From the IMG/VR virus record IMGVR_UViG_3300032116_000094, positions 1 through 64,000 of that record: a DNA stretch of 64,000 bases. One strand, written 5' to 3'. This document shows, one piece after another, positions 1 through 13,187 of this stretch. The position numbers were made by a program, and so were the translations under genes. The notes under the pieces were generated by a model. The model searched no databases. It worked only from the letters and a program-made list of their open reading frames with translations, and was not told the origin of the DNA. The DNA is from a virus. Taxonomy: Duplodnaviria > Heunggongvirae > Uroviricota > Caudoviricetes. The first letter of the stretch is position 1. Every line of letters starts with the position of its first letter.

Positions 1-177
1 GAAGTATACTATAACTATGAATTTAGAGACAAAATTTGTAAGTTAATTCGTTTAAAAAAGGTTGATTTTGAAATACTTCTGAGCAAATGGGTTGAAGATA
101 CCTTTCAAATGAAGGTTAAGACCATCGCTTCCGAGTATCCTTTCGCCTCAAAGCTGTTGAAGATACCAACCAAATAA
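1..177 (+). CDS. Array-A paralog, 3' partial (5' end upstream of window)
   Basis: In frame from nt 1. Nt 1-128 are identical to 343-470 of unit 190..516. Unique tail AS EYPFASK then LKIPTK*, stop TAA 175-177. Confidence 0.6.
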   Translation, partial: EVYYNYEFRDKICKLIRLKKVDFEILLSKWVEDTFQMKVKTIASEYPFASKLLKIPTK

Positions 178-189
178 AATCCAAATAAC

Positions 190-516
190 ATGAGCAAAGA
201 AGAATATTATAGTAAAATAAAAAAAATTGTTTACCGAAAGTTTGACGAACTGGAAGTGGTTGAACGTAACGATGGAGACGACATATATCTTCATTATAAA
301 AATAATAGATATGCTGAAATCCTAATTAAGAAAAAATCAGGTGAAGTATACTATAACTATGAATTTAGAGACAAAATTTGTAAGTTAATTCGTTTAAAAA
401 AGGTTGATTTTGAAATACTTCTGAGCAAATGGGTTGAAGATACCTTTCAAATGAAGGTTAAGACCATCGACGTAACCGATGTATTGCTCTATTTTCTGGT
501 TGAAGATACCAACTAA
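190..516 (+). CDS. Array-A paralog unit 1 (~108 aa; conserved body + unique C-terminal tail)
   Basis: ORF. N-term MSKEEYYSKIKK. WVEDTFQMKV motif. Tail KTIDVTDVLLYFL then VEDTN*. Confidence 0.7.
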   Translation: MSKEEYYSKIKKIVYRKFDELEVVERNDGDDIYLHYKNNRYAEILIKKKSGEVYYNYEFRDKICKLIRLKKVDFEILLSKWVEDTFQMKVKTIDVTDVLLYFLVEDTN

Positions 517-532
517 ATAAAAACTAAATGAT

Positions 533-862
533 ATGAGCAAAGAAGAATATTATAATAAAATAAAAAAATTAATTTACAGAAAGTTTGATGAACTAGAGGT
601 ATTCAAAAGTACTAATGGAAAGAAAATATATCTTCATTATAAAAATAGTGAATATGCAAATATCCTAATTAATAAAAAATCAGGTGAAGTATACTATCAT
701 TATAATTTTAGAGACAAATTTTTTTATACAATTCGTTTAGAAAATGCTGATTTTCAAATATTCTTGAAAGGATGGATTGAAAATACCTTTCAAATTAAGG
801 TAAGTCACCCTGCTGTAATCCCAAGCCACCTGATTCGTTGGTTGAAGATACCAACTAAATAA
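533..862 (+). CDS. Array-A paralog unit 2
   Basis: ORF. MSKEEYY N-term. Tail SHPAVIPSHLIRW then LKIPTK* (R2 read in a different frame). Confidence 0.7.
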   Translation: MSKEEYYNKIKKLIYRKFDELEVFKSTNGKKIYLHYKNSEYANILINKKSGEVYYHYNFRDKFFYTIRLENADFQIFLKGWIENTFQIKVSHPAVIPSHLIRWLKIPTK

Positions 863-874
863 AATTTAGATAAC

Positions 875-1189
875 ATGAGCAAAGAAGAATATTATAGTAA
901 AATAAAAAGATTCGTTTATAAAAGGTTTAATGAGCTGGAAGTTATTGACCGTAATAATGGAAATTTTTTGTATCTTGGTTATAAAAACAAAGGTTATGCT
1001 GAGATTGTGATCGATAAAAACTCAGGTTTGGTTTACTACTATACTGGATTCAAAGATAAAATTAATAAGATGGTTCCGTTGAAAATGCGTGATTTTGAAA
1101 TTCTTTTGGATAGATGGGTTGAAGATACCTTTAAAATAAAAGTGATCAATACCCTGTGGTACAGTAATTATTCATGGTACCGAATTTGA
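875..1189 (+). CDS. Array-A paralog unit 3
   Basis: ORF. Tail INTLWYSNYSWYRI*. Stop falls inside R2 (third frame). Confidence 0.7.
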   Translation: MSKEEYYSKIKRFVYKRFNELEVIDRNNGNFLYLGYKNKGYAEIVIDKNSGLVYYYTGFKDKINKMVPLKMRDFEILLDRWVEDTFKIKVINTLWYSNYSWYRI

Positions 1190-1218
1190 AGATACATCCC
1201 AAATAAAATTTATATAAC

Positions 1219-1551
1219 ATGAGCAAAGAACAGTATTATAATAAAATAAAAATATTCATTTACAGAAAGTTTGAAGAACTGGAAGTGGTTGAACGTGATA
1301 AAGGAAATGTTTTGTATATTCGTTATAATAATGAAATATATGCCCAGATATTAATTGAAAAAAAATCAGGTAAGGTTTACTACTCTTATAGGTTAAGTAA
1401 AAAAATGTATAAAATAATCCCGTTGGAAACGACTGATTTTGAGTTATTTTTGAGCAAATGGATTGAAAATACTTTTCAAGTGAAGGTAAAACAAATCTTA
1501 CATGGCAAAAAAACACGATCACGTGCTTGGCTAAAAATACCTTTAAAATAA
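1219..1551 (+). CDS. Array-A paralog unit 4
   Basis: ORF. MSKEQYY N-term. First ~90 nt identical to unit 1564..1902. Tail KQILHGKKTRSRAW then LKIPLK. Confidence 0.7.
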   Translation: MSKEQYYNKIKIFIYRKFEELEVVERDKGNVLYIRYNNEIYAQILIEKKSGKVYYSYRLSKKMYKIIPLETTDFELFLSKWIENTFQVKVKQILHGKKTRSRAWLKIPLK

Positions 1552-1563
1552 AATTTAGATAAC

Positions 1564-1902
1564 ATGAGCAAAGAACAGTATTATAATAAAATAAAAATAT
1601 TCATTTACAGAAAGTTTGAAGAACTGGAAGTGGTTGAACGTGATAAAGGAAATTATTTGTATCTTCGTCACAAAAATGACGAATTCGTTCAAATCATGAT
1701 TGATAAAAAATCTAGTTTGGTTTACTACTATACTAAATTCAGAGATAAAATTAATAAGATAGTTCGGTTGGAACAGACTGATTTTGAAATTCTTTTGAAG
1801 AGATGGGTTGAAGATACATTTAAAATAAAGGTGATCAATATCAAGATGAGGTTTTCACGGTGGAGCCCGATGGATGAACATAACTTTAAGATAAAATTTT
1901 AA
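1564..1902 (+). CDS. Array-A paralog unit 5
   Basis: ORF. Tail INIKMRFSRWSPMDEHNF then KIKF. Confidence 0.7.
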   Translation: MSKEQYYNKIKIFIYRKFEELEVVERDKGNYLYLRHKNDEFVQIMIDKKSSLVYYYTKFRDKINKIVRLEQTDFEILLKRWVEDTFKIKVINIKMRFSRWSPMDEHNFKIKF

Positions 1903-1906
1903 TAAA

Positions 1907-2221
1907 ATGAGTAAAGAAGAGTATTATAGTAAAATAAAAAGATTTGTTTACCGAAAGTTTAATGAATTGGAAGTGGTTGAACGTAATCTTGGCGATGCTT
2001 TGTTTCTTCGTTATAATAATGAACCATATGCTCAGATCCGAATTAATATAAAATCGGGTAATGTTTACTATTATCGTAACTTTAGAAACAAATTTATTAA
2101 GGTAATTCATATGGAAAATAGTGATTTTGAAATACTTTTGGGCAAATGGATTGAAGAAACCTTTCAAATTAAGGTTAGCGACATTATACCCCAAAAATAC
2201 ACCATTATACTCATTGATTGA
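1907..2221 (+). CDS. Array-A paralog unit 6
   Basis: ORF. Tail SDIIPQKYTIILID. Confidence 0.7.
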   Translation: MSKEEYYSKIKRFVYRKFNELEVVERNLGDALFLRYNNEPYAQIRINIKSGNVYYYRNFRNKFIKVIHMENSDFEILLGKWIEETFQIKVSDIIPQKYTIILID

Positions 2222-2250
2222 AGATACCTTCCAAATAAAAACTAAGTAAC

Positions 2251-2589
2251 ATGAGCAAAGAAGAATATTATAGTAAAATAAAAAGATTTGTTTACAGAAA
2301 GTTTGATGAACTGGAAGTAACTGAACGTAATAAACGAAATGACTTGTATCTTCATTATAAAAATAACGAATATGCTGAAATCCTAATTAAGAAAAAATCA
2401 GGTGAAGTATACTATAACTATAACTATGAACTTAGTGACAAATTTTTTATGACAATTAATTTAGAAAAGGTTGATTTTGAAATACTTCTGGGCAGATGGG
2501 TTGAAGATACCTTTCAAATGAAGGTGAATCACACCCATGAGTGCGTACTCGTGATCGAGCATATGATGTTGAAGATACCTTTCAAATAA
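2251..2589 (+). CDS. Array-A paralog unit 7
   Basis: ORF. Tail NHTHECVLVIEHMM then LKIPFK. Confidence 0.7.
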   Translation: MSKEEYYSKIKRFVYRKFDELEVTERNKRNDLYLHYKNNEYAEILIKKKSGEVYYNYNYELSDKFFMTINLEKVDFEILLGRWVEDTFQMKVNHTHECVLVIEHMMLKIPFK

Positions 2590-2601
2590 AATTTAGATAA
2601 C

Positions 2602-2937
2602 ATGAGCAAAGAAGAATATTATAGTAAAATAAAAAGATTTGTTTACCGAAAGTTTGACGAACTGGAAGTGATTCATAGTAGTCATAACAATGATTTGTAT
2701 ATTCGCTATAAAAATGATAAATATGCACAGATCGTAATCGGAAAAACAACTGGGTTTATTTTTTATTATTATGAATTTAAAGACAAAATTTGTAATATCA
2801 TTCAGTTGGAAACGCGTGATTTTAAAATACTTTTAGAACGATGGGTTCAAGATACTTTTCAAATAAAAGTGGAGCTCACTGTTAAAATTGATTACATGAG
2901 CGGTCTGCTCGTTGAAGATACCAATAAAATAACTTAA
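2602..2937 (+). CDS. Array-A paralog unit 8
   Basis: ORF. Tail ELTVKIDYMSGLL then VEDTNKIT. Confidence 0.7.
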   Translation: MSKEEYYSKIKRFVYRKFDELEVIHSSHNNDLYIRYKNDKYAQIVIGKTTGFIFYYYEFKDKICNIIQLETRDFKILLERWVQDTFQIKVELTVKIDYMSGLLVEDTNKIT

Positions 2938-2942
2938 ATGAC

Positions 2943-3272
2943 ATGAGTAAAGATAGGTTATATAAAGGAATAAAAAATATCATTTATCGGGAAATTGATT
3001 CGCTGCAAGTTAGCGAACGTAATGATGGAATTTACGTTTATCTTCATTATAAAAATCCTGACCGTGCTCAGATTGTAATTGAAAAAAATTCGGGTTGGGT
3101 TTTCTATTATTATAGATTCAAAGACAAAATTTTTAAGAAAATTCCGCTGGAAAACCGTGATTTTGAAATACTTTTAGAGCAATGGGTTGAAGATAAATTT
3201 CAAATAAAAGTGACCGGCATCTGGAGATCGAAGTTTCTTTCAATGGCTGCATTGAATATACCTCCCAAATAA
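2943..3272 (+). CDS. Array-A paralog unit 9
   Basis: ORF. MSKDRLY N-term. Tail TGIWRSKFLSMAAL then NIPPK. Tail is near-identical to the next unit. Confidence 0.7.
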   Translation: MSKDRLYKGIKNIIYREIDSLQVSERNDGIYVYLHYKNPDRAQIVIEKNSGWVFYYYRFKDKIFKKIPLENRDFEILLEQWVEDKFQIKVTGIWRSKFLSMAALNIPPK

Positions 3273-3284
3273 AAATTAAATGAT

Positions 3285-3614
3285 ATGAGCAAAAAGGAAT
3301 ATTATAGTAAAATAAAAAGATTTGTTTACAGAAGGTTTGATGAACTGGAAGTGGCTGAAGGTGATAATGGGAATATTTTGTGTTTTGGTTATAAAAACAA
3401 AGGTTATGCGGAGATTGTGATCTATAAAAACTCAGGTCGGGTTTTCTATTCTAAAAGATTCAGAGACAAAATTAATAAGATATTTCGGTTTGAAGAGATT
3501 GATTTTAAAATTTTTTTGAAGAAATGGGTTGAAGATAAATTTAAAATAAAAGTGACCGGCGTCTGGATATCGAAGTTTCTTTCAATGGCAGCATTGAATA
3601 TGCCACCCAAATAA
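3285..3614 (+). CDS. Array-A paralog unit 10
   Basis: ORF. Tail TGVWISKFLSMAAL then NMPPK (recent duplicate of unit 9 tail). Confidence 0.7.
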   Translation: MSKKEYYSKIKRFVYRRFDELEVAEGDNGNILCFGYKNKGYAEIVIYKNSGRVFYSKRFRDKINKIFRFEEIDFKIFLKKWVEDKFKIKVTGVWISKFLSMAALNMPPK

Positions 3615-3626
3615 AAATTAAATGAC

Positions 3627-3971
3627 ATGAGTAAAGAAAAATATTACAACAAAATAAAAAGATACATTTACAGAAAGTTTGAGGAACTGGAGGTATTCGA
3701 AAGTAATGATGGAAATTATTTGTATCTTCGTTACAAACATGCTGAATTTGCTAAAATAGTGGTTAATAAAAGCTTACTTAAAGTTTCCTACTATACTGGA
3801 TTCAGAGATAAAATTAATAAGATAGTTCCGTTGGAAAAACGTGATTTTGAAATTCTATTGAAGAGATGGATTAAAGATACATTTCAAATGAAGATGAAAA
3901 ATGCCAACGCGATAAAGTACGCAGAGGTGCTGCTAGTCGTTGAAGATACTTTTAAAATAAAATTTAGATAA
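3627..3971 (+). CDS. Array-A paralog unit 11
   Basis: ORF. Tail KNANAIKYAEVLLV then VEDTFKIKFR (R2 read in frame a through to KFR*). Confidence 0.7.
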   Translation: MSKEKYYNKIKRYIYRKFEELEVFESNDGNYLYLRYKHAEFAKIVVNKSLLKVSYYTGFRDKINKIVPLEKRDFEILLKRWIKDTFQMKMKNANAIKYAEVLLVVEDTFKIKFR

Positions 3972-3972
3972 C

Positions 3973-4296
3973 ATGAGCAAAGAACAGTATTATAATAAAA
4001 TAAAAAGGTACATTTACAGAAAGTTTGATGAACTGGAAGTGATTAATAAAGGAGCTTATGTGTATCTTCGTTATAAAAACGATGATTATGCCGACATCCT
4101 AATTCGAAAAGAATTAGGTTATGTTTACTATTATTCTGGATTTAAAAAGAAAATTATTAATATAACCCGGTTGGAGACACGTGATTTTGAAATACTTCTG
4201 TACAGATGGATTGAAAATACCCTTCAAATAAAGGTTAATGAGATCTATTCTAAGGGTGGAGAAACCTTCGACAGATTTGAGATTCCTTTCAAATAA
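3973..4296 (+). CDS. Array-A paralog unit 12
   Basis: ORF. Tail NEIYSKGGETFDRFE then IPFK. Confidence 0.7.
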   Translation: MSKEQYYNKIKRYIYRKFDELEVINKGAYVYLRYKNDDYADILIRKELGYVYYYSGFKKKIINITRLETRDFEILLYRWIENTLQIKVNEIYSKGGETFDRFEIPFK

Positions 4297-4308
4297 AATT
4301 TTAATGAT

Positions 4309-4638
4309 ATGAAAAAAGAAGAATATTATAATAAAATAAAAAGATTGGTTTATAGAAAGTTTAACGAACTGGAATTGGTTGAACGTAATAATCGAAATGA
4401 GTTGTATCTTCGTTATAAAAATGGTGACTCCGCTCAAATCATGATCAATAAAAACTCAGGTTGGGTTTACTATTTTAGAAGATTCAGATACAAAATTGAT
4501 AACATGATTCGGTTGGAACAGGATGATTTTGAAATACTTCTAACTAAATGGGTTGAAGATACCTTTAAAATAAAGGTGATCAACACCCATTGCACCGGGT
4601 TCGTTCACCAATTTCCGTTGAAGATACCTTTAAAATAA
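4309..4638 (+). CDS. Array-A paralog unit 13 (followed by a second repeat-spacer module)
   Basis: ORF. Tail INTHCTGFVHQFP then LKIPLK. Downstream 4617-4716 holds another full repeat plus an unrelated spacer. Confidence 0.7.
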   Translation: MKKEEYYNKIKRLVYRKFNELELVERNNRNELYLRYKNGDSAQIMINKNSGWVYYFRRFRYKIDNMIRLEQDDFEILLTKWVEDTFKIKVINTHCTGFVHQFPLKIPLK

Positions 4639-4716
4639 AGGTGATCAACACCATACAGCGGCTGTACTCAAATATATTGCAGGTTGAAGATACCCTTCAA
4701 ATAAAATTTAAATAAC
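4552..4716 (+). repeat. Repeat-spacer-repeat-spacer-repeat module at the 3' end of unit 13
   Basis: gttgaagatacctttaaaataaaggtgatcaaca occurs exactly twice (4552-4585, 4617-4650). A degenerate third copy is at 4683-4706. Intervening segments of 31 and 32 nt are unrelated. Confidence 0.85.
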
Positions 4717-5046
4717 ATGAGCAAAGAACAGTATTATAATAAAATAAAAAAATTCGTGTACAGAAAGTTTGACGAACTGGAAGTGAGCAAACGTAATCTT
4801 GGAAACGATATATTTCTTCATTATAACAATGCGAAATATGATCAGATCCTAATTCAAAAAAAATCGGGTTATATTTACTATCAATCTAAATATAGAGATA
4901 AAATTATTAAACCAATAGCATTGGAAAATGTTGATTTTGAAATACTTTTAAAGCGATGGGTTGAAGATACCTTTCAAATGAAAGTTAATGACACCGGGCT
5001 CAAGTATATGAGCAACGCCACAGAGTTAAAGAAACCTCCCAAATAA
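4717..5046 (+). CDS. Array-A paralog unit 14
   Basis: ORF. Tail NDTGLKYMSNATE then LKKPPK. Confidence 0.7.
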   Translation: MSKEQYYNKIKKFVYRKFDELEVSKRNLGNDIFLHYNNAKYDQILIQKKSGYIYYQSKYRDKIIKPIALENVDFEILLKRWVEDTFQMKVNDTGLKYMSNATELKKPPK

Positions 5047-5058
5047 AAATTAAATGAT

Positions 5059-5403
5059 ATGAGTAAAGAAGACTATTACAGCAAAATAAAAAGATACATT
5101 TACAGAAAGTTTGAGGAACTGGAGGTATTTGAAAGTAGTGATGGAAATGAGATATACCTTTATTATAAAGGTGAAAAATATGCTGAGATCCGAGCTAAAA
5201 GAACTGTAGGTGAACTAATCTATTATTATGGGTTTAGCAACAAAATTATTAAGCCAATTCCTATAGAAAATCGTGATTTTGAAATACTTTTGAGGGTATT
5301 TATTGAAGATACATTTCAAATGAAAGTTAATGAAATCTATGGCTGGGATGGACACAAGACTATCACCGCGTTAAGAATACCTTACAGGTTAAAAGATAAC
5401 TGA
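5059..5403 (+). CDS. Array-A paralog unit 15
   Basis: ORF. Tail NEIYGWDGHKTITA then LRIPYRLKDN. Confidence 0.7.
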   Translation: MSKEDYYSKIKRYIYRKFEELEVFESSDGNEIYLYYKGEKYAEIRAKRTVGELIYYYGFSNKIIKPIPIENRDFEILLRVFIEDTFQMKVNEIYGWDGHKTITALRIPYRLKDN

Positions 5404-5404
5404 T

Positions 5405-5737
5405 ATGAATAAAGAAAAATATTATAATAAAATAAAAAAGTACATTTACAGAAAGTTTAATGAATTAGAAGTTATTGAACGTGATAATGGGAACGACATA
5501 TATCTTCGGTATAAAAATGATGATTATGCTAAGATCCTAGTTAAAAGAAATTCAGGTGAAGTAATTTATTATTATAGATTTAGAAGCAAAATTCTTAAGC
5601 CAATCCCTATAGAAAAGCGTGATTTTGAAATACTTTTGAGCAGATGGGTTGAAGATAAATTCAAAATTAAGGTTAACTATATCCTAATTTTGTCTCCAGG
5701 GTCATTCACAATCAGGTTAAAAATACCTCCCAAATAA
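5405..5737 (+). CDS. Array-A paralog unit 16
   Basis: ORF. MNKEKYY N-term. Tail NYILILSPGSFTIR then LKIPPK. Confidence 0.7.
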   Translation: MNKEKYYNKIKKYIYRKFNELEVIERDNGNDIYLRYKNDDYAKILVKRNSGEVIYYYRFRSKILKPIPIEKRDFEILLSRWVEDKFKIKVNYILILSPGSFTIRLKIPPK

Positions 5738-5749
5738 AAATTAAATGAT

Positions 5750-6064
5750 ATGAGAAAAGAAAAATATTATAATATAATAAAAAAGTACATCTACAGAAAG
5801 TTTGATGTACTGGAAGTGGTTAAACGTAATGATGGCAATACTTTGTATCTTCGTTATAAAAATAACGAATATGCTGAAATCATAATTAATAAAAAATTTG
5901 GCGAAGTATACTATTATTCTGAATATAAGAAGAAAATTTGTTATATGATTGGCATTAATCAGGTTGATTTTGAAATACTTTTGAAGAGCTGGGTTGAAGA
6001 AACCTTTCAAATGAAGGTGAGTTACACCTCAGGAAGTTTTGGTGTTAATTGGCTTGTTCGTTGA
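5750..6064 (+). CDS. Array-A paralog unit 17
   Basis: ORF. Tail SYTSGSFGVNWLVR. Confidence 0.7.
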   Translation: MRKEKYYNIIKKYIYRKFDVLEVVKRNDGNTLYLRYKNNEYAEIIINKKFGEVYYYSEYKKKICYMIGINQVDFEILLKSWVEETFQMKVSYTSGSFGVNWLVR

Positions 6065-6093
6065 AGATACCTTTCAAATAAAAATTAAATGAT

Positions 6094-6423: not shown

Positions 6424-6435
6424 AAATTCAATGAT

Positions 6436-6777: not shown

Positions 6778-6778
6778 T

Positions 6779-7093
6779 ATGGATAAAGAAGAATATTATA
6801 ATAAAATAAAAAGATTCATTTATAAAAGGTTTAATGAATTGGAAGTGATTGAACATAATAACGGAAATCTTATATATCTTCATTATAAAAATGAAGGTCA
6901 TGTTGAGGTCATAATTCAAAAAGAATTTGGTAGTGTTTTAAATTACTATAAATTCAGACAAAAAATTTGTAAAATGGTTGACTTGAAAGTGGTTGATTTT
7001 GAAATACTTTTGAACAGATGGGTTGAAGATACCTTAAAAATAAAGGTTGTACGCAACTCAGAATTTGACTTTAAAGTTGTGTTTTCTGGTTGA
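6779..7093 (+). CDS. Array-A paralog unit 20
   Basis: ORF. MDKEEYY N-term. Tail VRNSEFDFKVVFSG. Confidence 0.7.
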   Translation: MDKEEYYNKIKRFIYKRFNELEVIEHNNGNLIYLHYKNEGHVEVIIQKEFGSVLNYYKFRQKICKMVDLKVVDFEILLNRWVEDTLKIKVVRNSEFDFKVVFSG

Positions 7094-7122
7094 AGATGCC
7101 TCCAAAATAAAACTTAAATGAT

Positions 7123-7422
7123 ATGGATAAAGAAGAGTATTATAATAAAATAAAAAATTGGGTGTACAGGAAGTTTGATGAGCTTGAACCACACAAAATT
7201 TATAGTGAGGACACAATATGCCTTCGTTATAAAAATAATAAATATACTCAGATCATAATTAACAAAAAATTAGGCGATGTAGTCTATTATACAGACTACA
7301 GAAACAAAATTTGTAAGCCTATTAGATTGCTACGAGATGATTTTGATATCCTTCTGAGCGAATGGATTGAAGATAGATTTAAAATCAAGGTTACTGACAT
7401 GGCCGGTAGATACTTTTTATAG
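7123..7422 (+). CDS. Array-A paralog unit 21
   Basis: ORF. Tail TDMAGRYFL. Confidence 0.65.
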   Translation: MDKEEYYNKIKNWVYRKFDELEPHKIYSEDTICLRYKNNKYTQIIINKKLGDVVYYTDYRNKICKPIRLLRDDFDILLSEWIEDRFKIKVTDMAGRYFL

Positions 7423-7465
7423 TTGATGAACGTTAAATATGCCTCCAAAATAAAACTTAAATAAT

Positions 7466-7804
7466 ATGGATAAAGAAAAATATTATAATAAAATAAAAAA
7501 ATGGATATATGAAAAGTTCAATGGGCTGAATATATATGAAAGTTATAATGGAAGCACAATATATCTTCATTATAAAAATGATGACCAAGTTCAGATCAAA
7601 ATTAGAAAAAATAGTGGCATAATTCAGTATTATAATGGTTTTATGGATAAAATTATTAAACCAATTTCTTTGAATCCTAATGATTTCGAAATACTCCTAG
7701 GCAGATGGGTTGAAGAAAAGTTTAAAACAGATGTTATTCACATCCGGTCTATTGGTGTTGTGCGTGTTCTGTTTGTTGAACATAAATTCAAAAGGAAAAT
7801 TTAA
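7466..7804 (+). CDS. Array-A paralog unit 22
   Basis: ORF. Tail IHIRSIGVVRVLF then VEHKFKRKI. Confidence 0.65.
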   Translation: MDKEKYYNKIKKWIYEKFNGLNIYESYNGSTIYLHYKNDDQVQIKIRKNSGIIQYYNGFMDKIIKPISLNPNDFEILLGRWVEEKFKTDVIHIRSIGVVRVLFVEHKFKRKI

Positions 7805-7815
7805 TTAAATTAATC

Positions 7816-8127
7816 ATGGATAAAGAAAAATTTTATAATAAAATAAAAATTTGGATATACAGAAAGTTTGATGAACTGGAAGTTAGTGAAAGCTCCGATG
7901 GGACAATAATATGCCTTCGTTACAAAGATAATGCTTACATTCAGGTCAGTATTGAAAAAACATACAACCAAATTATCTATAATGCCGCTTTCAGGGACAA
8001 TATTTCTAAGCTGATTCGATTGCAAAAGCGTGACTTTGAAACACTTCTAAGCAATTGGATTAAAAAGACCTTTAAAATGAAAGTGGCCACCATCATTCCG
8101 GGGTATACAGGTACATTATGTTATTGA
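7816..8127 (+). CDS. Array-A paralog unit 23
   Basis: ORF. Tail ATIIPGYTGTLCY. Confidence 0.65.
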   Translation: MDKEKFYNKIKIWIYRKFDELEVSESSDGTIICLRYKDNAYIQVSIEKTYNQIIYNAAFRDNISKLIRLQKRDFETLLSNWIKKTFKMKVATIIPGYTGTLCY

Positions 8128-8162
8128 AAAAACCTTTCAACTAAAAGTTAAATTATAATAAT

Positions 8163-8480
8163 ATGAGTAAAGAAGAATATTATGATAGAATAAAAAAATG
8201 GCTTTATATTAAGTTTGATGAACTGAAAGTAATTGAAAGCCTTAATGGAAATAACTTATTTTTTAAATATAAAAATCAAAAATATTGTGATATACGAATT
8301 CAAAAAAATTCAGGTATAGTTTTTTATTATTATATGTTTAGTGAGAAATTTTTTAACAGGATTCGTTTGAAAGAGGCTGATTTTGAAATAATTCTGAGCA
8401 AATGGATTGAAGATAGATTTAAAATTAAGGTAACTAAAATGGTTAAAAGGATCGTCGGAAGAGAAATCATTGTTGATTGA
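8163..8480 (+). CDS. Array-A paralog unit 24
   Basis: ORF. Tail TKMVKRIVGREIIVD. Confidence 0.65.
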   Translation: MSKEEYYDRIKKWLYIKFDELKVIESLNGNNLFFKYKNQKYCDIRIQKNSGIVFYYYMFSEKFFNRIRLKEADFEIILSKWIEDRFKIKVTKMVKRIVGREIIVD

Positions 8481-8517
8481 TACCTTTCAAGTGATGGCTA
8501 ATAATAAATAATACGGC

Positions 8518-8835
8518 ATGGATAAAGAACAATATTATAATAAAATAAAAAATTGGTTATCTAACAAGCTTGATAAGCTGTACATAATTGAAACCTCTGA
8601 AGGTACTTTATACCTATATAAAAAGAATGATGATTTTCCTCAGCTCCGGATTCATAAAAGTTCAGGCTTAGTTTGTTATTATATTGGATTCGCAAACGAT
8701 CTGCTTAAAAAGGTTCCAATGGGTATTATTGATTTTGAAATAATTCTGGGTGCATATATTGAAGATATTCTTGAAATTAAGGTGACTGTAATTTCCCCCC
8801 TTCCAACGGTGTATGATGTTGATGATAAATTCTAA
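8518..8835 (+). CDS. Array-A paralog unit 25
   Basis: ORF. Divergent body. Tail TVISPLPTVYDVDDKF. Confidence 0.65.
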   Translation: MDKEQYYNKIKNWLSNKLDKLYIIETSEGTLYLYKKNDDFPQLRIHKSSGLVCYYIGFANDLLKKVPMGIIDFEIILGAYIEDILEIKVTVISPLPTVYDVDDKF

Positions 8836-8857
8836 TTAACAGTATAAATATTTAAAT

Positions 8858-9172
8858 ATGGATAAAGAACAATATTATAATAGAATAAAAAAATGGGTTT
8901 ATGGAAAGTTTGATGAACTGGAAGTGATTAAAAGAAAGAAAGGGAGTAACGTGTATCTTCGTTATAAAAATGGCGAATATACTCAGGTTGAAATTGATAA
9001 AAAATTTGGTCATGTTTACTATTATTATGAATTCAGCGAGAAAATTTGTAAACATCTTCGCATTGAAAAGCATGACTTTGAAATACTTTTGAAAAGATGG
9101 GTCGAAGAGACCTTTCAAATGAAGGTGGATAATGTCATAATTTGTGTAGTACGTAGCCGCCCGATAGCTTAA
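8858..9172 (+). CDS. Array-A paralog unit 26
   Basis: ORF. Tail DNVIICVVRSRPIA. Confidence 0.65.
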   Translation: MDKEQYYNRIKKWVYGKFDELEVIKRKKGSNVYLRYKNGEYTQVEIDKKFGHVYYYYEFSEKICKHLRIEKHDFEILLKRWVEETFQMKVDNVIICVVRSRPIA

Positions 9173-9198
9173 TAAAGGTAAACTATAAATCTTTAAAT

Positions 9199-9525
9199 AT
9201 GGATAAAGAGCAATATTATAATAGCATAAAAAAATTGTTATATAAAAAGTTCGACGAGCTAAAATTATATGATAACCCTAATGGGCTTGTAAGTTATTTA
9301 CATTACGATAGAGATGATTACGCTCAGATCCTAATTTTTAAACACACAGGCCGAGTTTTTTATTATCATGGTTTCGCAAAGAAACTTTTTAAGTTTATTC
9401 GACTAGAATATGAAGATTTTGAAATACTCTTGGGTAGATGGGTTGAAGAAAAATTTAAAATACATGTGAAAAGTATCAGACAGACAACAGATGTCCGCAT
9501 ACCTGGTTTTAACTCTAATTTTTAA
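9199..9525 (+). CDS. Array-A paralog unit 27
   Basis: ORF. Tail KSIRQTTDVRIPGFNSNF. Confidence 0.65.
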   Translation: MDKEQYYNSIKKLLYKKFDELKLYDNPNGLVSYLHYDRDDYAQILIFKHTGRVFYYHGFAKKLFKFIRLEYEDFEILLGRWVEEKFKIHVKSIRQTTDVRIPGFNSNF

Positions 9526-9530
9526 ATGGC

Positions 9531-9824
9531 ATGTATAAAGAAAAATATCATAATAGCATAAAAAAATGGGTTTATAGCAAATTTGATGAACTGCACGTAA
9601 TCTCAAACTGTGAAGAAAATTTATATTTCGGTTATAAAAATGATTCTTTTTTTGTTATACGAATTTATAAAGCCACAGGTAATGTTTATTATACACATCG
9701 CTTGAGAGACCTAGTTAGTAAAAAACTTGCCTTAAATATCATTGATTTTGAGATTCTTTTACGTAGATGGATTGAAAGTAAATGTGAAATTAAAATAAAT
9801 AAAATCATTGACCTCCTTTTTTAA
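9531..9824 (+). CDS. Array-A paralog unit 28
   Basis: ORF. MYKEKYH N-term. Short tail NKIIDLLF. Confidence 0.6.
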   Translation: MYKEKYHNSIKKWVYSKFDELHVISNCEENLYFGYKNDSFFVIRIYKATGNVYYTHRLRDLVSKKLALNIIDFEILLRRWIESKCEIKINKIIDLLF

Positions 9825-9870
9825 TTTGTACATATCCCCCCCATTTTAGCTCCCCCAATTTATTTTTAAT

Positions 9871-9904
9871 TATTTGAATTTGTTAATTTTATCCTGTACC
9901 TTTG
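9871..9904 (+). promoter_or_regulatory. Internal Bacteroidetes-type promoter inside array A
   Basis: TTTG at 9873-9876. ~20-nt spacer. TAccTTTG at 9897-9904. ATG at 9914. Preceded by an unusual C-rich tract (9830-9860). Confidence 0.45.
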
Positions 9905-9913
9905 TTCTTTACT

Positions 9914-10219
9914 ATGAACGAAGATAAGCTATATACTATAACTCAAAAATGGTTACAAAGGAAACTTAGTAATCTGGTCGTATCTGAAGATATCGAAAAA
10001 ATATCACTTAAGCGTAAAGGTGATACTGACTCAACTATTGTGATCTATAAAAATCGTAATCTTGTTTGTTATTTAGGAGGATATAGAAATAAACTTACTA
10101 GTATGTTACCAATGAAAATCAGCCTATTTAATTTCTTATTGAAGAATTGGGTTAAAGATAATTATAACATTGAAATAATAGAAGTTTCCTCTAGTGCTAG
10201 CATGTACAATCATGGATAA
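9914..10219 (+). CDS. Array-A paralog, divergent subfamily (no duplicated R2)
   Basis: ORF 9902..10219. Start moved to ATG 9914 (MNEDKLYTI) because a TAccTTTG -7 box lies at 9897-9904. Motif NWVKDNYNIEI. Confidence 0.55.
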   Translation: MNEDKLYTITQKWLQRKLSNLVVSEDIEKISLKRKGDTDSTIVIYKNRNLVCYLGGYRNKLTSMLPMKISLFNFLLKNWVKDNYNIEIIEVSSSASMYNHG

Positions 10220-10553
10220 AGAAAAGCTATATAACATAGCCGGAAAATGGATTAATAATAAGTTCGATACTCTGGTGAAAGAACAAGACAATGAGCCATC
10301 TTGCATTACTCTGTGTTCTTGTCTCAACAATAAGACTATTATTCGAATTTACAAAAGTGATGGTTGTGTATGTTATAACGTAGATTACATGAAAAAAATA
10401 ATTAAGTTATTCCCCATGCAAATCGAAGATTTCGAATTACTGCTAAAAAAATGGGTACAATATAAATTTGATATTAAAGTAACTGAAGTCATAGCTTTTG
10501 ACTTGTTAATAGTTAACCCCCAAGTTAGTTATATGATTTATGCTCAAAGATAA
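10212..10553 (+). CDS. Array-A paralog, divergent subfamily
   Basis: ORF 10194..10553. Family-type start MDKEKLYNIAGKW at 10212. Overlaps previous stop by 8 nt. Confidence 0.55.
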   Translation: MDKEKLYNIAGKWINNKFDTLVKEQDNEPSCITLCSCLNNKTIIRIYKSDGCVCYNVDYMKKIIKLFPMQIEDFELLLKKWVQYKFDIKVTEVIAFDLLIVNPQVSYMIYAQR

Positions 10554-10836
10554 ATTATACCGTGTGGCTCAAAAATGGACCTACAGGAAGTTTAATAACC
10601 TGGGTGTATGGGAATCTGATCATGTTGTAGAACTTCGCCATGACGACGATCCTCGCATTACTATTCACATTTATAAAGAGCTTGAAAGGGTTTTTTATTA
10701 CGAAGATTACATGCAAAGGATCATTAATGTATTCCCCATGCAAATAGAAGACTTCGAATTGCTTTTATGTCAATGGATTGACGAAAAATTTAAAGTTAAA
10801 ATAAATAACATATATAGAATGAGATTCCGGCCATAA
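10540..10836 (+). CDS. Array-A paralog, divergent subfamily
   Basis: ORF. MLKDKLYRVAQKW..QWIDEKFKVKI. Overlaps previous unit by 14 nt. Confidence 0.55.
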   Translation: MLKDKLYRVAQKWTYRKFNNLGVWESDHVVELRHDDDPRITIHIYKELERVFYYEDYMQRIINVFPMQIEDFELLLCQWIDEKFKVKINNIYRMRFRP

Positions 10837-10873
10837 TATGAAGATGTTATATTTATTAAGATAAAAGATTATT

Positions 10874-11179
10874 ATGGATGATAAATTATATCTAGCGGCA
10901 AGAAGGGTTCTTTATAAGAAATTTGATGTGTTGTTCGTGAGAGAAGATGAGGATAAAATAGACCTTAGCCCTTACGACGACGAATATTCTGTAATTAGAA
11001 TATATAAAAAGTTCGGCATTGTTTATTATATGACAGATTTCAAGAAAAAAGTCATTCAAAAATTTCCGGTACCAAACGTTGATTTTGAAATACTTTTAAT
11101 TATGTGGGTCGAACATAAATTCGGAATTAAAGTTAAAAAAGTCAACAGCTACAGTTGGTATTTAAATGCTTTACTTTGA
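10874..11179 (+). CDS. Array-A paralog, divergent subfamily
   Basis: ORF. MDDKLYLAARR..DFEILLIMWVEHKFGIKV. Confidence 0.6.
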   Translation: MDDKLYLAARRVLYKKFDVLFVREDEDKIDLSPYDDEYSVIRIYKKFGIVYYMTDFKKKVIQKFPVPNVDFEILLIMWVEHKFGIKVKKVNSYSWYLNALL

Positions 11180-11221
11180 AGATATATTTCAGGCTATTGA
11201 ATCTTAAAAACATTTGCCAAT

Positions 11222-11521
11222 ATGAGTAAACTAAAATTTTATGTTAAAGCCGGGAGATGGTTTTATAATCAGTTTGAAAAGTTGACAATTGTCACTGAAC
11301 GCAAAGTTTTACATCTTCACACATATATTGATTTTAAATGCGATATTCGAATTTATCTAAATTATGGTGAAGTATTTTACGATGTAAATTATATGCACAA
11401 GTTGTTTAAACTGTTCCCGATATCACAATCCGACTTTGACACTATTTTAGCCAATTGGGTTGAAAATAAATTCAATATAAATGTGCGAATTATCCGGCCA
11501 TTCAATGAATCGGTTTATTAA
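11222..11521 (+). CDS. Array-A paralog, divergent subfamily
   Basis: ORF. ..SDFDTILANWVENKFNINV. Confidence 0.6.
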   Translation: MSKLKFYVKAGRWFYNQFEKLTIVTERKVLHLHTYIDFKCDIRIYLNYGEVFYDVNYMHKLFKLFPISQSDFDTILANWVENKFNINVRIIRPFNESVY

Positions 11522-11530
11522 AATAGTATT

Positions 11531-11830
11531 ATGAGTAAAGAACTATTATATCTTAAAACCAGGAGATGGTTTTACAAGAAATTTGATCAGTTGATTGTGA
11601 CTGTAGATGAAGATAATATAAATCTCAGTAGTAAAGATAATAAATCGAAATTTGTTCGGATTTATATATATGATGATGAGATTTTGGTATATTATTATAT
11701 TAGATTCAAATATCAGTTAACTAAAATAATACCATTAGAAAGATTGGACTTTGAATTTTTCTTGAAAGAATGGATCGAAGATAAATTCGGCCTAAAAATC
11801 GATTATGTATATGAAAGTGATTATAAGTAA
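11531..11830 (+). CDS. Array-A paralog, divergent subfamily
   Basis: ORF. Near-duplicate of 11857..12156. Ends ..WIEDKFGLKIDYVYESDYK. Confidence 0.6.
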   Translation: MSKELLYLKTRRWFYKKFDQLIVTVDEDNINLSSKDNKSKFVRIYIYDDEILVYYYIRFKYQLTKIIPLERLDFEFFLKEWIEDKFGLKIDYVYESDYK

Positions 11831-11856
11831 TATGGCCCAATCAAAGTATATGTTAT

Positions 11857-12156
11857 ATGAGCGAAAATAAGTTATATATTAAAGTCATAAGATGGTTTTA
11901 CATGAAATTTGATCAGTTGATTGTGACCGCAGATGAAAATCGTATAATCCTCAGTAGTAAAGATAATAAATCGAAATTTGTTCGGATTTATATATATGAT
12001 GATGAGATTTTGGTATATTATTATGCCGGATTCAGATATTATTTAACTAAAATAATACCATTAGAAACATCGGATTTTGAATTGTTCTTGGTAAAATGGA
12101 TCGAAGAGAAATTCGGCCTAAAAATCGATGATGTACGTGAAAGTGATTATAACTAA
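11857..12156 (+). CDS. Array-A paralog, divergent subfamily
   Basis: ORF. Near-duplicate of previous unit, including the shared intergenic block tatggcccaatcaaagtatatgttatATG. Confidence 0.6.
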   Translation: MSENKLYIKVIRWFYMKFDQLIVTADENRIILSSKDNKSKFVRIYIYDDEILVYYYAGFRYYLTKIIPLETSDFELFLVKWIEEKFGLKIDDVRESDYN

Positions 12157-12182
12157 TATGGCCCAATCAAAGTATATGTTAT

Positions 12183-12467
12183 ATGAGCGAAAATAAGTTA
12201 TATCTTAAAACCAGGAGATGGTTTTATAACCAATTTGATAAGTTGAAAGAATCTGAGGACACTGAAAAAATAGTGCTTAGGGATAAGCATGAGTTTTCTG
12301 TGGTCCGTATATATAAATCGGAAAAAGAAGCATTTTATTTCGTATTCTTCAGGTATGATCTGGTTAGTGTTATCCCTATTAAAAATGCAGATTTTGAAAT
12401 GTTTCTGAGAGAATGGATCGAAGATAAATTCAAAATAAAACTAACTAAAATGCACGTCAAAATCTAA
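12183..12467 (+). CDS. Array-A paralog, divergent subfamily
   Basis: ORF. ..DFEMFLREWIEDKFKIKL. Confidence 0.6.
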   Translation: MSENKLYLKTRRWFYNQFDKLKESEDTEKIVLRDKHEFSVVRIYKSEKEAFYFVFFRYDLVSVIPIKNADFEMFLREWIEDKFKIKLTKMHVKI

Positions 12468-12480
12468 GAAACACAGGATC

Positions 12481-12780
12481 ATGAAGAATGAAAAATCATA
12501 TATTAAAATCAGGAAATGGTTTTATCACAAGTTTGATATGCTGACGTTTTATACTACCAATGAAAAAATAAATCTTTTTGATATAGAAGAAGATTCTGTT
12601 ATACGAGTATATTTGATAAACAATGAAGGTGAAATCTTTTATTATGAAGATTTTATGCTTGATCTAGTTAAAATTATACCAATAAGTATCAACGACTTCG
12701 AACTGTTTTTAACATCCTGGATCGAAGATAAATTTAAAATAAAAGTAATTAAGATACACGCAAGTTCAATATCACAATAG
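12481..12780 (+). CDS. Array-A paralog, divergent subfamily
   Basis: ORF. ..DFELFLTSWIEDKFKIKV. Confidence 0.6.
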   Translation: MKNEKSYIKIRKWFYHKFDMLTFYTTNEKINLFDIEEDSVIRVYLINNEGEIFYYEDFMLDLVKIIPISINDFELFLTSWIEDKFKIKVIKIHASSISQ

Positions 12781-12819
12781 TCAAAAAATTTTTAAAATTA
12801 AACTAACAAATTAATTATT

Positions 12820-13125
12820 ATGGACAACCATAAATCATATCGTAGAACCATGAACTGGTTCTATTCCAGGTTTGACAAGCTGATTGTCATTGAAAACAAA
12901 AATAATATAGAGCTTTACAATAAAGATGATCGTGCCTCTATCGTCCGCATTCACTGGACCGGTGTTGTGTATTACTATAAAAGATTCAGAGATGATCTTA
13001 CTAAGATAGTCCCAGTATCAAAAGAAGACTTTGAAATGATTTTTAGTTCCTGGATTGAGAATAAATTTGAAATTCATATAAATACTATTAAAGAGGTTAC
13101 ATATAAACTTCATACACCAAAGTAA
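12820..13125 (+). CDS. Array-A paralog, divergent subfamily (last unit)
   Basis: ORF. ..DFEMIFSSWIENKFEIHI. Confidence 0.6.
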   Translation: MDNHKSYRRTMNWFYSRFDKLIVIENKNNIELYNKDDRASIVRIHWTGVVYYYKRFRDDLTKIVPVSKEDFEMIFSSWIENKFEIHINTIKEVTYKLHTPK

Positions 13126-13135: not shown

Positions 13136-13187
13136 AGTATGAATAAAAAAAACGATTACCAGGTATTACCCTAGTAATCGTCATACT
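13136..13187. terminator. Long imperfect palindrome at the distal end of array A (candidate bidirectional terminator or recombination site)
   Basis: AGTATGA-A9-CGATTAC - loop 14 nt - GTAATCG-TCATACT. Two 7-bp stems. Lies between the convergent array end and the minus-strand gene 13206..13412. Confidence 0.35.

What the first reader, a model, noticed from the sequence alone, without database searches (positions are those of the whole stretch)
1..13125. Giant tandem array (>=39 units, running off the window) of a ~105-aa paralog family
Thirty-nine consecutive same-strand genes fill 13 kb with almost no intergenic space. Each has the same conserved ~90-aa K/Y-rich body and an idiosyncratic C-terminal tail. 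I do not recognise the family (no signal peptide, no known catalytic motif). Pairwise divergence ranges from identical stretches to roughly half the residues changed. This suggests continuous birth-and-death with gene conversion rather than one recent amplification. The first unit is truncated by the window edge, so the array is longer.
Basis: seen in the sequence. Interest (0 to 1): 0.8.

Follow-up and report, generated by a model that had tools for sequence, protein, structure and literature searches.

The report
CRISPR-like cassettes inside amplified phage genes
A huge freshwater phage carries about 51 tandem copies of a small unknown gene, and each copy ends in a translated repeat–unique segment–repeat cassette whose size and repeat sequence match Cas13b-type (type VI-B) CRISPR arrays, a combination I could not find described.

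Summary
The array is real. It has 38 complete units and 1 truncated unit of about 342 nt on the + strand, from 1 to 13125. The near-identical 277.6-kb contig has 44 units on the + strand and 7 divergent ones, about 51 in all.

Each unit encodes a confidently folded domain of about 92 aa (pLDDT 89). It has no Pfam, PHROG, NCBIfam, PADLOC or PDB relative.

The "idiosyncratic tail" is a defined DNA cassette:
- R1 is a 36-nt repeat that also encodes the end of the domain.
- V is a unique segment of 28–33 nt.
- R2 is a second repeat copy, read in three different frames.

V has 44% GC against 28% for the array, and its GC3 lies 9 sd above the value expected from phage codon usage. It is at chance identity between units, although synonymous sites are 67% identical. 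Yet it is almost free of stops in the gene's frame.

The repeat matches published type VI-B (Cas13b) CRISPR repeats at 23–26 of 36 positions (z 5–7). Control II-C and V-A repeats do not match. The 36/30/66-nt geometry is the same as in VI-B arrays.

Sister phages carry one gene with 3–24 such modules in frame.

I found no protospacers, no cas genes in the window and no polarity of turnover. The origin of the cassettes and their function remain inferred.

The parts
1..178 (+). Truncated unit 0, cut by the window edge: 3' half of a body, then R1, V and R2.
   Evidence: The same unit is complete in locus L009 at 213-542.
190..8517 (+). Units 1-24. Each has a body of about 243 nt, a 36-nt repeat R1, a 28-33-nt unique segment V, and a second repeat copy R2 of about 36 nt that ends at the next ATG.
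433..468 (+). Example of R1 (unit 1): GTTGAAGATACCTTTCAAATGAAGGTTAAGACCATC. It encodes VEDTFQMKVKTI, the end of helix 3 plus strand 5.
   Evidence: It matches type VI-B repeats in the exact 36-nt register.
469..498 (+). Example of V (unit 1): a unique 30-nt segment, translated as DVTDVLLYFL.
   Evidence: It is identical in strains L001-L003 and L006.
499..534 (+). Example of R2 (unit 1): GTTGAAGATACCAACTAAATAAAAACTAAATGATAT. The first ~24 nt are conserved and the 3' half is degenerate. It holds the stop codon and ends at the next start codon.
4552..4718 (+). Unit 13 tail with two cassettes: R (4552-4587), V (4588-4616), an identical R (4617-4652), V (4653-4682), R2 (4683-4718). The second V is out of frame.
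8518..9913 (+). Units 25-28, transitional. R1 is recognisable and R2 is weak or absent.
9914..13125 (+). Units 29-38, the most divergent paralogs (28-36% mean identity to the rest). Their tails are short and they have no R2 or V cassette.
13151..13182 (-). A 13-bp hairpin followed by a T-run, just after the last unit. It looks like a terminator for the converging minus-strand genes, so it would block antisense read-through into the array.

Best explanation
SHOWN
- The region is part of a tandem family of about 51 genes in a ~278-kb freshwater huge phage.
- Each gene encodes a ~92-aa alpha/beta domain of unknown fold.
- Each gene ends in a 36-nt sequence (R1) that is repeated about 30 nt downstream (R2).
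- The ~30 nt in between (V) are unique to each unit.
- The repeat is related in sequence to type VI-B (Cas13b) CRISPR direct repeats of freshwater Bacteroidota. The geometry is the same: 36-nt repeat, 30-nt spacer, 66-nt period.
- So every gene tail is a one-spacer, CRISPR-like mini-array that the ribosome reads through. This gives a constant 12-residue segment followed by a random-looking peptide of about 10 residues.
- Sister phages carry the same design as one gene with 3-24 in-frame modules.

INFERRED: ORIGIN AND TURNOVER
- The cassettes arose by events of the spacer-integration type, that is, duplication of the local 36 bp plus insertion of about 30 bp of foreign DNA. Alternatively they were captured from host arrays. 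Either way the site was a repeat-like gene end.
- Because 66 nt is 22 codons, stop-free insertions keep the reading frame.
- Unequal recombination and gene conversion between repeats and between bodies then shuffled the cassettes and amplified the units.

INFERRED, WEAKEST STEP: FUNCTION
- The more than 90 repeat copies on the array transcripts interact with the host Cas13b system, as repeat mimics or decoys, or as guides.
- Translation through V is kept for one of two reasons. Either it holds the stop codon next to the following start, or the tail peptides are themselves used.
For: Cassette anatomy:
- R1 is 36 nt, V is 28-33 nt (mean 30.2), and the R1-to-R2 spacing is 64-69 nt.
- Some tails hold several cassettes with identical 36-mers and unrelated V: unit 13 here, and four in a row with period 66 in locus L008.

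Repeat versus published type VI-B repeats:
- The repeats come from PMC5395568 Table 4 and from L015, which sits next to a Cas13b gene (PDB 6dtd, E = 1.7e-68).
- Identity is 23-26 of 36, z = 5.1-7.0, with 0 of 2000 shuffles as good. II-C and V-A repeats from the same genomes give z of about 0.6.
- A scan of the whole window with the F. columnare VI-B repeat finds 24 sites at >= 21/36 on the minus strand. Of these, 22 lie in the array and 20 are in the exact R1 register, with a maximum of 26. The maximum outside the array is 22.
- The VI-B geometry of 36/30/66 nt is taken from bioRxiv 10.1101/092577 and PMC8092290.

V is foreign-like:
- GC at codon positions 1/2/3 is .47/.40/.44, against .35/.20/.26 for the bodies.
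- The same peptides re-encoded with phage codon usage would give GC3 of .28 +/- .018.
- V identity between units is 26%, against 67% at third codon positions of the bodies.
- The distribution of V identities between pairs is bimodal.
- Orthologous V segments diverge at about the neutral rate, 3.7% against pS of 4.2%. So there is no ongoing hypermutation.

V is translated:
- In-frame stops occur in 1 of 25 V segments here and 3 of 47 across strains. Shuffles give a mean of 11.2 V segments with an in-frame stop, and 9-10 V segments carry a stop in each of the other five frames.
- In the sister family, 2 of 175 V segments have an in-frame stop, against 67 and 94 in the other frames. Lengths are multiples of 3.

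Other CRISPR-like traits:
- R2 is conserved (78%, 76% and 67% per 12-nt block) although it is read in three frames.
- Distal repeats are degenerate in the sister arrays.
- In each lineage the repeat is a copy of the coding sequence for the last 12 residues of its own domain. That is what duplication of local sequence would produce.
Against: - No protospacer was found for 134 V segments against GenBank phages, for 7 V substrings against IMG/VR, or in about 70 kb of the phage's own sequence.
- There is no cas gene in the 64-kb window, and no ORF there exceeds 472 aa.
- Rfam CRISPR repeat models do not match.
- The canonical VI-B terminal stem GUUG/CAAC is imperfect (GUUG...CACC), and the predicted fold is no better than shuffles.
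- The orientation relative to the CRISPR repeat is ambiguous.
- Turnover of modules in the sister family is not polarised. Between 15% and 24% of modules are shared at every position.
- The motif WVE[DN]TF.xK[VG] is conserved at protein level across the whole superfamily. Third codon positions of R1 vary as much as those of the body. So R1 needs no constraint at nucleotide level.
- Stop avoidance, in-frame lengths and pN/pS of 0.5 point to selection at protein level.
Confidence: 0.45

Rival explanations
1. This is purely a protein-level system: a multigene family with a conserved ~92-aa domain and a hypervariable C-terminal peptide. That peptide could be a RiPP-like precursor core or a displayed library of peptides for binding or as decoys. 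Sister phages would hold the multi-core version. On this reading the resemblance to type VI-B repeats and the 36/30-nt geometry are coincidence.
For: - V is kept open in frame.
- Sister modules are in frame, and 155 of 175 V segments are exactly 30 nt.
- Third codon positions wobble in the repeats, and pN/pS is 0.39.
- Some modules are widely conserved, for example EDGDWLDGDER.
- The design of conserved leader plus hypervariable core, present in many paralogs, parallels prochlorosin/NHLP precursors, cyanobactin PatE and the MSDIN family (own knowledge; long structured leaders are described in PMC10858898).
- The repeat motif is ancient at protein level.
Against: - GC3 of V is 9 sd above the value expected from phage codon usage. 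Protein selection cannot explain that.
- V lengths here vary in single-nucleotide steps from 28 to 33, so R2 is read in three frames yet stays conserved.
- In cassettes beyond the first, V is usually out of frame or untranslated.
- No position inside V carries a motif. Entropy is 3.97-4.15 bits at all 10 positions.
- No protease, cyclase or other modifying enzyme lies near the genes.
- The match to VI-B repeats in the exact register has a chance probability of roughly 1e-6.
Confidence: 0.25
2. These are working viral CRISPR mini-arrays. Each unit would supply one crRNA (V plus the adjacent repeat) to the host's Cas13b, to attack competing phages or host transcripts. The ORF would overlap the array secondarily.
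For: - Each unit has two repeats and one spacer, as in known viral mini-arrays (PMC11656645).
- The V segments are unique and are inherited stably between strains.
- The part of R2 next to V is the conserved part.
- The geometry equals that of the 66-nt Cas13b crRNA.
Against: - The repeats are only 64-72% identical to known VI-B repeats, and the terminal stem is imperfect.
- No protospacer was found.
- A strong terminator blocks antisense read-through from the converging minus-strand genes just downstream.
- In the sense orientation the repeat that would follow V, namely R2, has a degenerate 3' half.
- Strong selection on the reading frame is not expected for a guide array.
Confidence: 0.12
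3. This is an ordinary tandem gene amplification (a 'genomic accordion'). Gene conversion homogenises the bodies, and the non-homologous tails have simply drifted apart. R2 is conserved only as the translation-initiation region of the next gene.
For: - Tracts of mosaic identity and differences in unit number between strains.
- The phage has several other tandem paralog families.
- The 3' half of R2 abuts the next ATG.
Against: - Drift under the phage's AT-biased mutation pressure cannot produce 44% GC that is flat across codon positions.
- Drift does not give a narrow length of 28-33 nt, a bimodal identity distribution, or exact 36-nt duplications with unrelated inserts.
- It does not explain the sister multi-module genes.
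- It does not explain the similarity to VI-B repeats.
Confidence: 0.08

Closest known systems
Type VI-B (Cas13b) CRISPR arrays of Bacteroidota, e.g. F. columnare CRISPR-2, F. branchiophilum, and the Chitinophagaceae MAG locus L015
   Same: - 36-nt repeat, 30-nt spacer and 66-nt period.
- 23-26 of 36 identity in the exact register.
- GTTG start, a central CCUU...AAGG hairpin, and a GGTATCTTCAAC-type end.
- Unique spacers and degenerate distal repeats.
   Different: - Embedded in protein-coding genes, translated, and with spacers kept free of stops.
- The terminal stem is imperfect.
- No adjacent cas13b gene, no protospacers found, and no polarised spacer turnover.
- Here there are about 51 separate one-spacer units, each preceded by a 243-nt gene body.
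Viral CRISPR mini-arrays and solitary repeat units (Racrs) (PMC11656645; PMC10651486)
   Same: Phage-borne CRISPR-repeat-like elements without cas genes, carrying one or two spacers. A role in conflict with host CRISPR or with other viruses is plausible.
   Different: - Known examples are non-coding, have repeats identical or nearly identical to the host's, and lie downstream of promoters.
- The Racr survey found solitary repeat units for every CRISPR type except type VI.
- The elements here overlap ORFs and are amplified about 51-fold.
Ectopic ('neo-CRISPR') spacer integration by Cas1-Cas2 at off-target sites (own knowledge: Nivala et al. 2018 Nat Microbiol; it is cited in papers retrieved, but I did not read it here)
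   Same: It duplicates a stretch of local sequence as long as a repeat and inserts a spacer-length fragment. It would therefore give R-V-R in which R is the lineage's own sequence.
   Different: It is described in host chromosomes and plasmids. It has not been described in phage coding sequence, nor as a recurrent, retained and translated feature.
Multi-copy RiPP precursor families with a conserved leader and a hypervariable core (prochlorosin/NHLP, cyanobactin PatE, MSDIN)
   Same: - A sharp boundary between a conserved region and a hypervariable one.
- Many paralogs, or several cores in one precursor.
- Flanks conserved at nucleotide level.
   Different: - No modifying enzymes nearby and no cleavage motif.
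- No residues inside V that could be modified.
- The downstream flank is read in three frames.
- V composition is foreign to the genome.

Membership tests
Type VI-B CRISPR array | Direct repeat of 36 nt | tested here: met
   Identical 36-mers bound the cassettes in unit 13 and in loci L008 and L170. The feature definition is from 10.1101/092577.
Type VI-B CRISPR array | Spacers of about 30 nt, each unique | tested here: met
   V is 28-33 nt with a mean of 30.2, and 54 unique V segments were found across strains. In the sister family 155 of 175 are 30 nt.
Type VI-B CRISPR array | Repeat sequence related to known VI-B repeats | tested here: met
   23-26 of 36 identity, z = 5.1-7.0, with negative II-C and V-A controls. 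Hits fall in the exact register in the whole-window scan.
Type VI-B CRISPR array | Complementary ends 5'-GUUG...CAAC-3' and a poly-U loop forming the canonical fold | tested here: not met
   R reads GUUG...CACC and its reverse complement reads GGUG...CAAC. The minimum-energy fold lacks the terminal stem, with z of -0.3 to -0.7. A loop of only 3 U is present, and only in the antisense orientation.
Type VI-B CRISPR array | Non-coding array next to cas13b | tested here: not met
   The repeats lie inside ORFs. The window has no ORF longer than 472 aa.
Type VI-B CRISPR array | Spacers match protospacers in mobile elements | tested here: inconclusive
   No match in INPHARED, in 7 IMG/VR scans, or in the phage's own sequence. 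Metagenome and host databases could not be searched for V.
Type VI-B CRISPR array | Polarised spacer gain with degenerate distal repeats | tested here: inconclusive
   Distal repeats are degenerate, with 6.5-9.0 mismatches against 2.0-2.6 for proximal ones. But V sharing is flat at 15-24% along the array.
Viral CRISPR mini-array / Racr | Repeat (nearly) identical to the host's CRISPR repeat | not testable with these tools
   The host is unknown. The best known repeat is 72% identical.
Viral CRISPR mini-array / Racr | Small non-coding RNA expressed from its own promoter | not testable with these tools
   No expression data. The elements overlap ORFs.
RiPP precursor family (NHLP/prochlorosin/cyanobactin-like) | Conserved leader plus hypervariable core | tested here: met
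RiPP precursor family (NHLP/prochlorosin/cyanobactin-like) | Cognate modifying enzyme or protease nearby, and a cleavage or modification motif in or beside the core | tested here: not met
   No such Pfam domain in the window or in the L001, L178 or L179 contexts. Entropy inside V is about 4 bits at every position.
Diversity-generating retroelement target | A template repeat that differs from the variable repeat at adenines, plus a reverse transcriptase | tested here: not met
   V segments are unrelated to each other and to the rest of the locus. Orthologous V segments evolve at the neutral rate. No reverse transcriptase appeared among the 16 window ORFs (and 5 from the adjoining upstream locus L001) that were scanned against Pfam; most window ORFs were not scanned.
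Pfam DUF7073 | Score above the gathering threshold | tested here: not met
   One unit reached E = 0.066 and 13.9 bits, against a cutoff of 27. None of 44 distant members hit.

The most novel reading that the evidence does not exclude
These phage genes grow by CRISPR-type spacer integration. A coding sequence that mimics a Cas13b repeat is used as an integration site, or is a captured array. Because 36 + 30 nt is 22 codons, each event adds a constant 12-mer plus a random decapeptide to the protein. The result is a dual-use element. At RNA level it gives dozens to hundreds of type VI-B repeat mimics or guides per genome, which would be the first type VI repeat mimicry reported in viruses. At protein level it gives a natural random-peptide library.
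Probability: 0.3. Interest if true: 0.92.

Novelty: new variant of a known kind. Interest (0 to 1): 0.8.

Why it matters
If the CRISPR link holds, three things follow:
- It would be the first type VI repeat-like element reported in viruses. The 2023 Racr survey found solitary repeat units for every CRISPR type except type VI.
- It would be the first case I know of in which repeat–spacer units are embedded in ORFs and translated.
- It would be a natural route by which spacer integration creates new coding sequence.

It would also give a testable handle on how huge freshwater phages deal with Cas13b. That system is common in Bacteroidota, and I know of no natural inhibitor of it.

Even if the link is coincidental, the finding stands on its own. 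The family is phage-restricted (at least 2341 clusters in the sister branch). It holds sharply bounded, fixed-length, sequence-unconstrained hypervariable cassettes that are out of compositional equilibrium with their genome. That is an unexplained diversification system.

Tried and rejected
1. I first read the cassettes as a plain non-coding CRISPR array. I rejected this because V is stop-free only in the gene's frame, and the sister arrays are in frame with third-position wobble.
2. L094 and L145 looked like a "genuine non-coding array". That was a wrong-strand artefact. The other strand is an ORF of the same family.
3. RNA structure in V: folding z-scores are about 0.
4. Ongoing hypermutation or a diversity-generating retroelement: orthologous V segments diverge at the neutral rate.
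5. DUF7073: not supported.
6. Fold recognition: nothing in the PDB. The afdb50 library was unavailable. BFVD returned only uncharacterised phage paralogs.
7. AlphaFold model of a multi-module protein: pLDDT 43, uninformative.
8. Protospacer searches: all negative.
9. Polarity of module turnover: none.
10. Sigma-70-like promoter hits at each unit start come from EYYN codons and are not enriched.
11. tblastn against INPHARED phages: no relative.
12. The search for related loci with the distant alignment failed because no stretch was conserved enough.

Full report
**1.

One search lists 38 complete ORFs of 94-119 aa on the + strand between 190 and 13125, plus a unit cut by the window edge at 1-178. 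The period is about 342 nt and the gaps between genes are tiny. The alignment shows one family, with 25-66% identity to unit 1 and conserved Y7, Y15, F18, Y55, D73, F74, L78 and W81. The region has 28% GC, so runs of 100 open codons are not chance.

The window is 99.87% identical to ENA contig ERZ27247984 k141_1797313, which is 277,584 bp long. An IMG/VR viral contig carries the same locus. In the long contig the array begins 5 units further upstream. Beyond a divergent 210-aa gene, 7 more units lie on the other strand. That gives about 51 units. Units 29-38 are the most divergent.

**2. The protein**

No Pfam, PHROG, NCBIfam or PADLOC family matches. A weak DUF7073 hit did not hold up. AlphaFold gives a confident model with pLDDT 89 and pTM 0.81. 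The order of elements is helix 1, strands 1-4, helices 2 and 3, strand 5, and then a disordered tail.

**3. The tails are DNA cassettes**

Reading the 3' ends as DNA shows a fixed layout in units 0 to about 25:
- R1 is a 36-nt sequence, GTTGAAGATACCTTTCAAATGAAGGTNNNNNNNNNC. It encodes VEDTFQxKVxxT, the end of helix 3 plus strand 5.
- V is a unique segment of 28-33 nt, with a mean of 30.2.
- R2 is a second copy of the repeat. Its first ~24 nt are conserved and it ends at the next ATG.

The spacing from R1 to R2 is 64-69 nt. V length is not a multiple of 3, so R2 is read in three frames. This gives VEDT..., LKIP.K, or an immediate TGA stop, and explains the "idiosyncratic" endings.

Some tails hold several cassettes with identical 36-mers and unrelated V segments. 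Unit 13 has two. Strain L008 has four with a period of 66.

**4. Properties of V**

- *Translated.* Only 1 of 25 V segments here, and 3 of 47 across strains, contain an in-frame stop. In each of the other five frames 9-10 V segments contain a stop, and shuffles give a mean of 11.2 with a minimum of 3 in 2000.
- *Foreign in composition.* GC is 43-44%, against 28% for the array. It is flat across codon positions at .47/.40/.44. The bodies have .35/.20/.26. The same peptides re-encoded with phage codon usage would give GC3 of .28 +/- .018.
- *Hypervariable beyond drift.* Mean identity between units is 26%, which is chance level. Third codon positions of the same genes are 67% identical, with pS of 0.43. 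The distribution of pairwise identities is bimodal, either at chance level or at 80% and above.
- *Not hypermutating.* V segments are identical across samples of the same population. Between strains they diverge by about 3.7%, close to the synonymous rate of 4.2%. pN/pS is 0.9 here and 0.5 in the sister family.
- *No RNA-structure signal*.
- *Sharp boundaries.* Units 0 and 1 are identical for about 130 nt up to V, unrelated across V, and similar again in R2.

**5. Sister architecture**

A three-copy pattern scan found many freshwater contigs with the repeat GTTGAAGATACCATTCAAAATGGGGTGAAACACACC, which matches R at 30 of 36 positions. In those contigs the repeats lie in one ORF. An N-terminal domain of about 90 aa, similar in pattern, is followed by 3-24 modules of the form [VEDTIQNGVKxT][10 variable residues].

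Of 175 unique V segments, 155 are exactly 30 nt and the other lengths are multiples of 3. Only 2 contain an in-frame stop, against 67 and 94 in the other two frames. Every position in V is essentially unconstrained, at 3.97-4.15 bits.

This branch is large, with at least 2341 clusters and contigs of up to about 290 kb. Modules are shuffled between strains. Only 15-24% are shared between proteins whose N-domains are at least 90% identical, with no positional bias. Repeats decay toward the distal end.

Other lineages repeat their own domain end, for example VEEVLNxKVxxT, VENALQMRVTDT and VEDTLKCGEITP. One of them has 28-29-nt inserts that are out of frame.

The gene context is early-type phage genes, including an RNA ligase, an AAA ATPase and HSP70, with no peptide-modifying enzymes. 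An AlphaFold model of a multi-module protein was uninformative, with pLDDT 43.

**6. The CRISPR link**

Type VI-B arrays have 36-nt repeats, 30-nt spacers and a 66-nt crRNA. Their repeats have 5'-GUUG...CAAC-3' ends and a poly-U loop (bioRxiv 10.1101/092577; PMC8092290).

I compared R with three repeats. Two are published, from F. columnare and F. branchiophilum (PMC5395568 Table 4). The third is from a Chitinophagaceae MAG array that lies next to a Cas13b gene (PDB 6dtd, E = 1.7e-68). R matches these at 23-26 of 36 positions, with z = 5.1-7.0 and 0 of 2000 shuffles as good. II-C and V-A repeats from the same genomes give z of about 0.6.

I then scanned the whole 64-kb window with the F. columnare VI-B repeat. 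It gave 24 sites at >= 21/36 on the minus strand. Of these, 22 are in the array and 20 are in the exact R1 register, with a maximum of 26. The maximum outside the array is 22. Control repeats hit only scattered AT-rich sites.

The best match for this window's repeat is antisense to the ORFs. In another lineage the sense strand matches better. That lineage's repeat ends in the reverse complement of the 12-mer with which this one begins. So the ancestral repeat probably had terminal inverted repeats, as VI-B repeats do, and the orientation remains ambiguous.

Several tests of CRISPR membership failed or were inconclusive:
- The canonical terminal stem is imperfect, and the predicted fold is no better than shuffles.
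- Rfam CRISPR repeat models do not match.
- There are no cas genes in the window.
- No protospacer was found for 134 V segments against GenBank phages, for 7 V substrings against IMG/VR, or within the phage's own sequence.

**7. Interpretation**

These points are shown. The region is a tandem family of about 51 genes. Each gene tail is a CRISPR-like repeat–unique segment–repeat cassette with VI-B geometry and a VI-B-related repeat. The cassette is translated, and the same design exists in multi-module form in sister phages.

The origin is inferred, and I give this overall reading a confidence of 0.45. The cassettes arose by events of the integration type, that is, duplication of the local 36 bp plus a foreign insert of about 30 bp. 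Alternatively they were captured from host arrays. This accounts for the geometry, the exact duplications, the fact that each lineage repeats its own sequence, the foreign composition of V and its uniqueness. Because 66 nt is 22 codons, stop-free insertions are tolerated. Recombination between repeats and between bodies then shuffles and amplifies the units.

The function is the weakest step. One possibility is that the array transcripts interact with host Cas13b as repeat mimics, decoys or guides. That would explain why R2 is conserved whatever its reading frame. It would also make the widespread LKIP ending a by-product of that conservation.

The requirement for translation has two candidate explanations. 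It could reflect coupling between termination in R2 and initiation at the next ATG. Alternatively the peptides themselves could be used.

The rivals are:
- a purely protein-level peptide library, or a RiPP-like family (0.25);
- working mini-arrays that guide Cas13b (0.12);
- plain amplification with drift (0.08).

**8. Novelty**

Viral mini-arrays and solitary repeat units are known (PMC11656645, PMC10651486). The Racr survey found none for type VI, and I found no description of repeat–spacer units embedded in ORFs and translated. I therefore rate this as a new variant of a known kind. There is a substantial chance (about 0.3) that it is a new way of building coding sequence and of countering Cas13b.

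Noticed in passing
window 49707-50134 (-), with tRNA-Met at 50551-50623 (-): A full-length GOLLD RNA (Rfam RF02032, 231.5 bits, E = 2.3e-64) lies next to a tRNA-Met gene in this huge phage.
   Followed up: no
window 13433-13563 (-): The Rfam tRNA model matches end to end (42.5 bits) across 131 nt, but ARAGORN calls no tRNA here. This may be an intron-containing or otherwise interrupted tRNA, just downstream of the array.
   Followed up: no
window 34872-45127 (-): A second tandem paralog array holds 11 consecutive ORFs of 274-319 aa. Eight of them cluster by BLASTP at 23-35% identity. The first ORF has a class-II aminoacyl-tRNA synthetase / asparagine synthetase A-like core (PF00152, E = 4.5e-8).
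   Followed up: partly
window 27937-30235 (+), 15792-17150, and 13619-17971 (-): Three further small paralog families, with 4, 3 and 3 members at 25-76% identity. The genome is unusually rich in tandem multigene families.
   Followed up: partly
L001 1231-1482 (-) and 2409-2798 (-): Upstream of the array lies an 83-aa ORF built of KWGTKTTCVLPEWGT-type repeats. Next to it is a 129-aa Trp/Gly-rich repeat protein (GIWKHGIWENGIWDGGFW...). Neither has a Pfam match.
   Followed up: no
L015 (Chitinophagaceae MAG CALLZY010000119.1), array at 1660-2157, cas13b at 2262-5588: A type VI-B locus with 8 repeats and 30-nt spacers. Its first two spacers are identical. A tyrosine integrase gene lies on the other side of the array, and a 193-aa ORF follows cas13b.
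   Followed up: partly
L178/L179 10744-17045: In sister huge phages, the multi-module gene is followed by a cREC_REC-domain protein, an RNA ligase, an AAA ATPase and a phage-encoded HSP70/DnaK homolog.
   Followed up: no
window 20965-21843 (-), 51315-52511 (-), 59152-59919 (-): An SPFH/Band 7 protein, a WD40 beta-propeller protein and a DUF932 protein are encoded in the same phage window.
   Followed up: no
L170 985-1758 and downstream to about 1960: In one sister strain the 8th V begins with TAA, which truncates the ORF. Two more modules and the conserved terminal module (EDGDWLDGDER) continue untranslated downstream. This is either a recent nonsense cassette or an assembly variant.
   Followed up: partly
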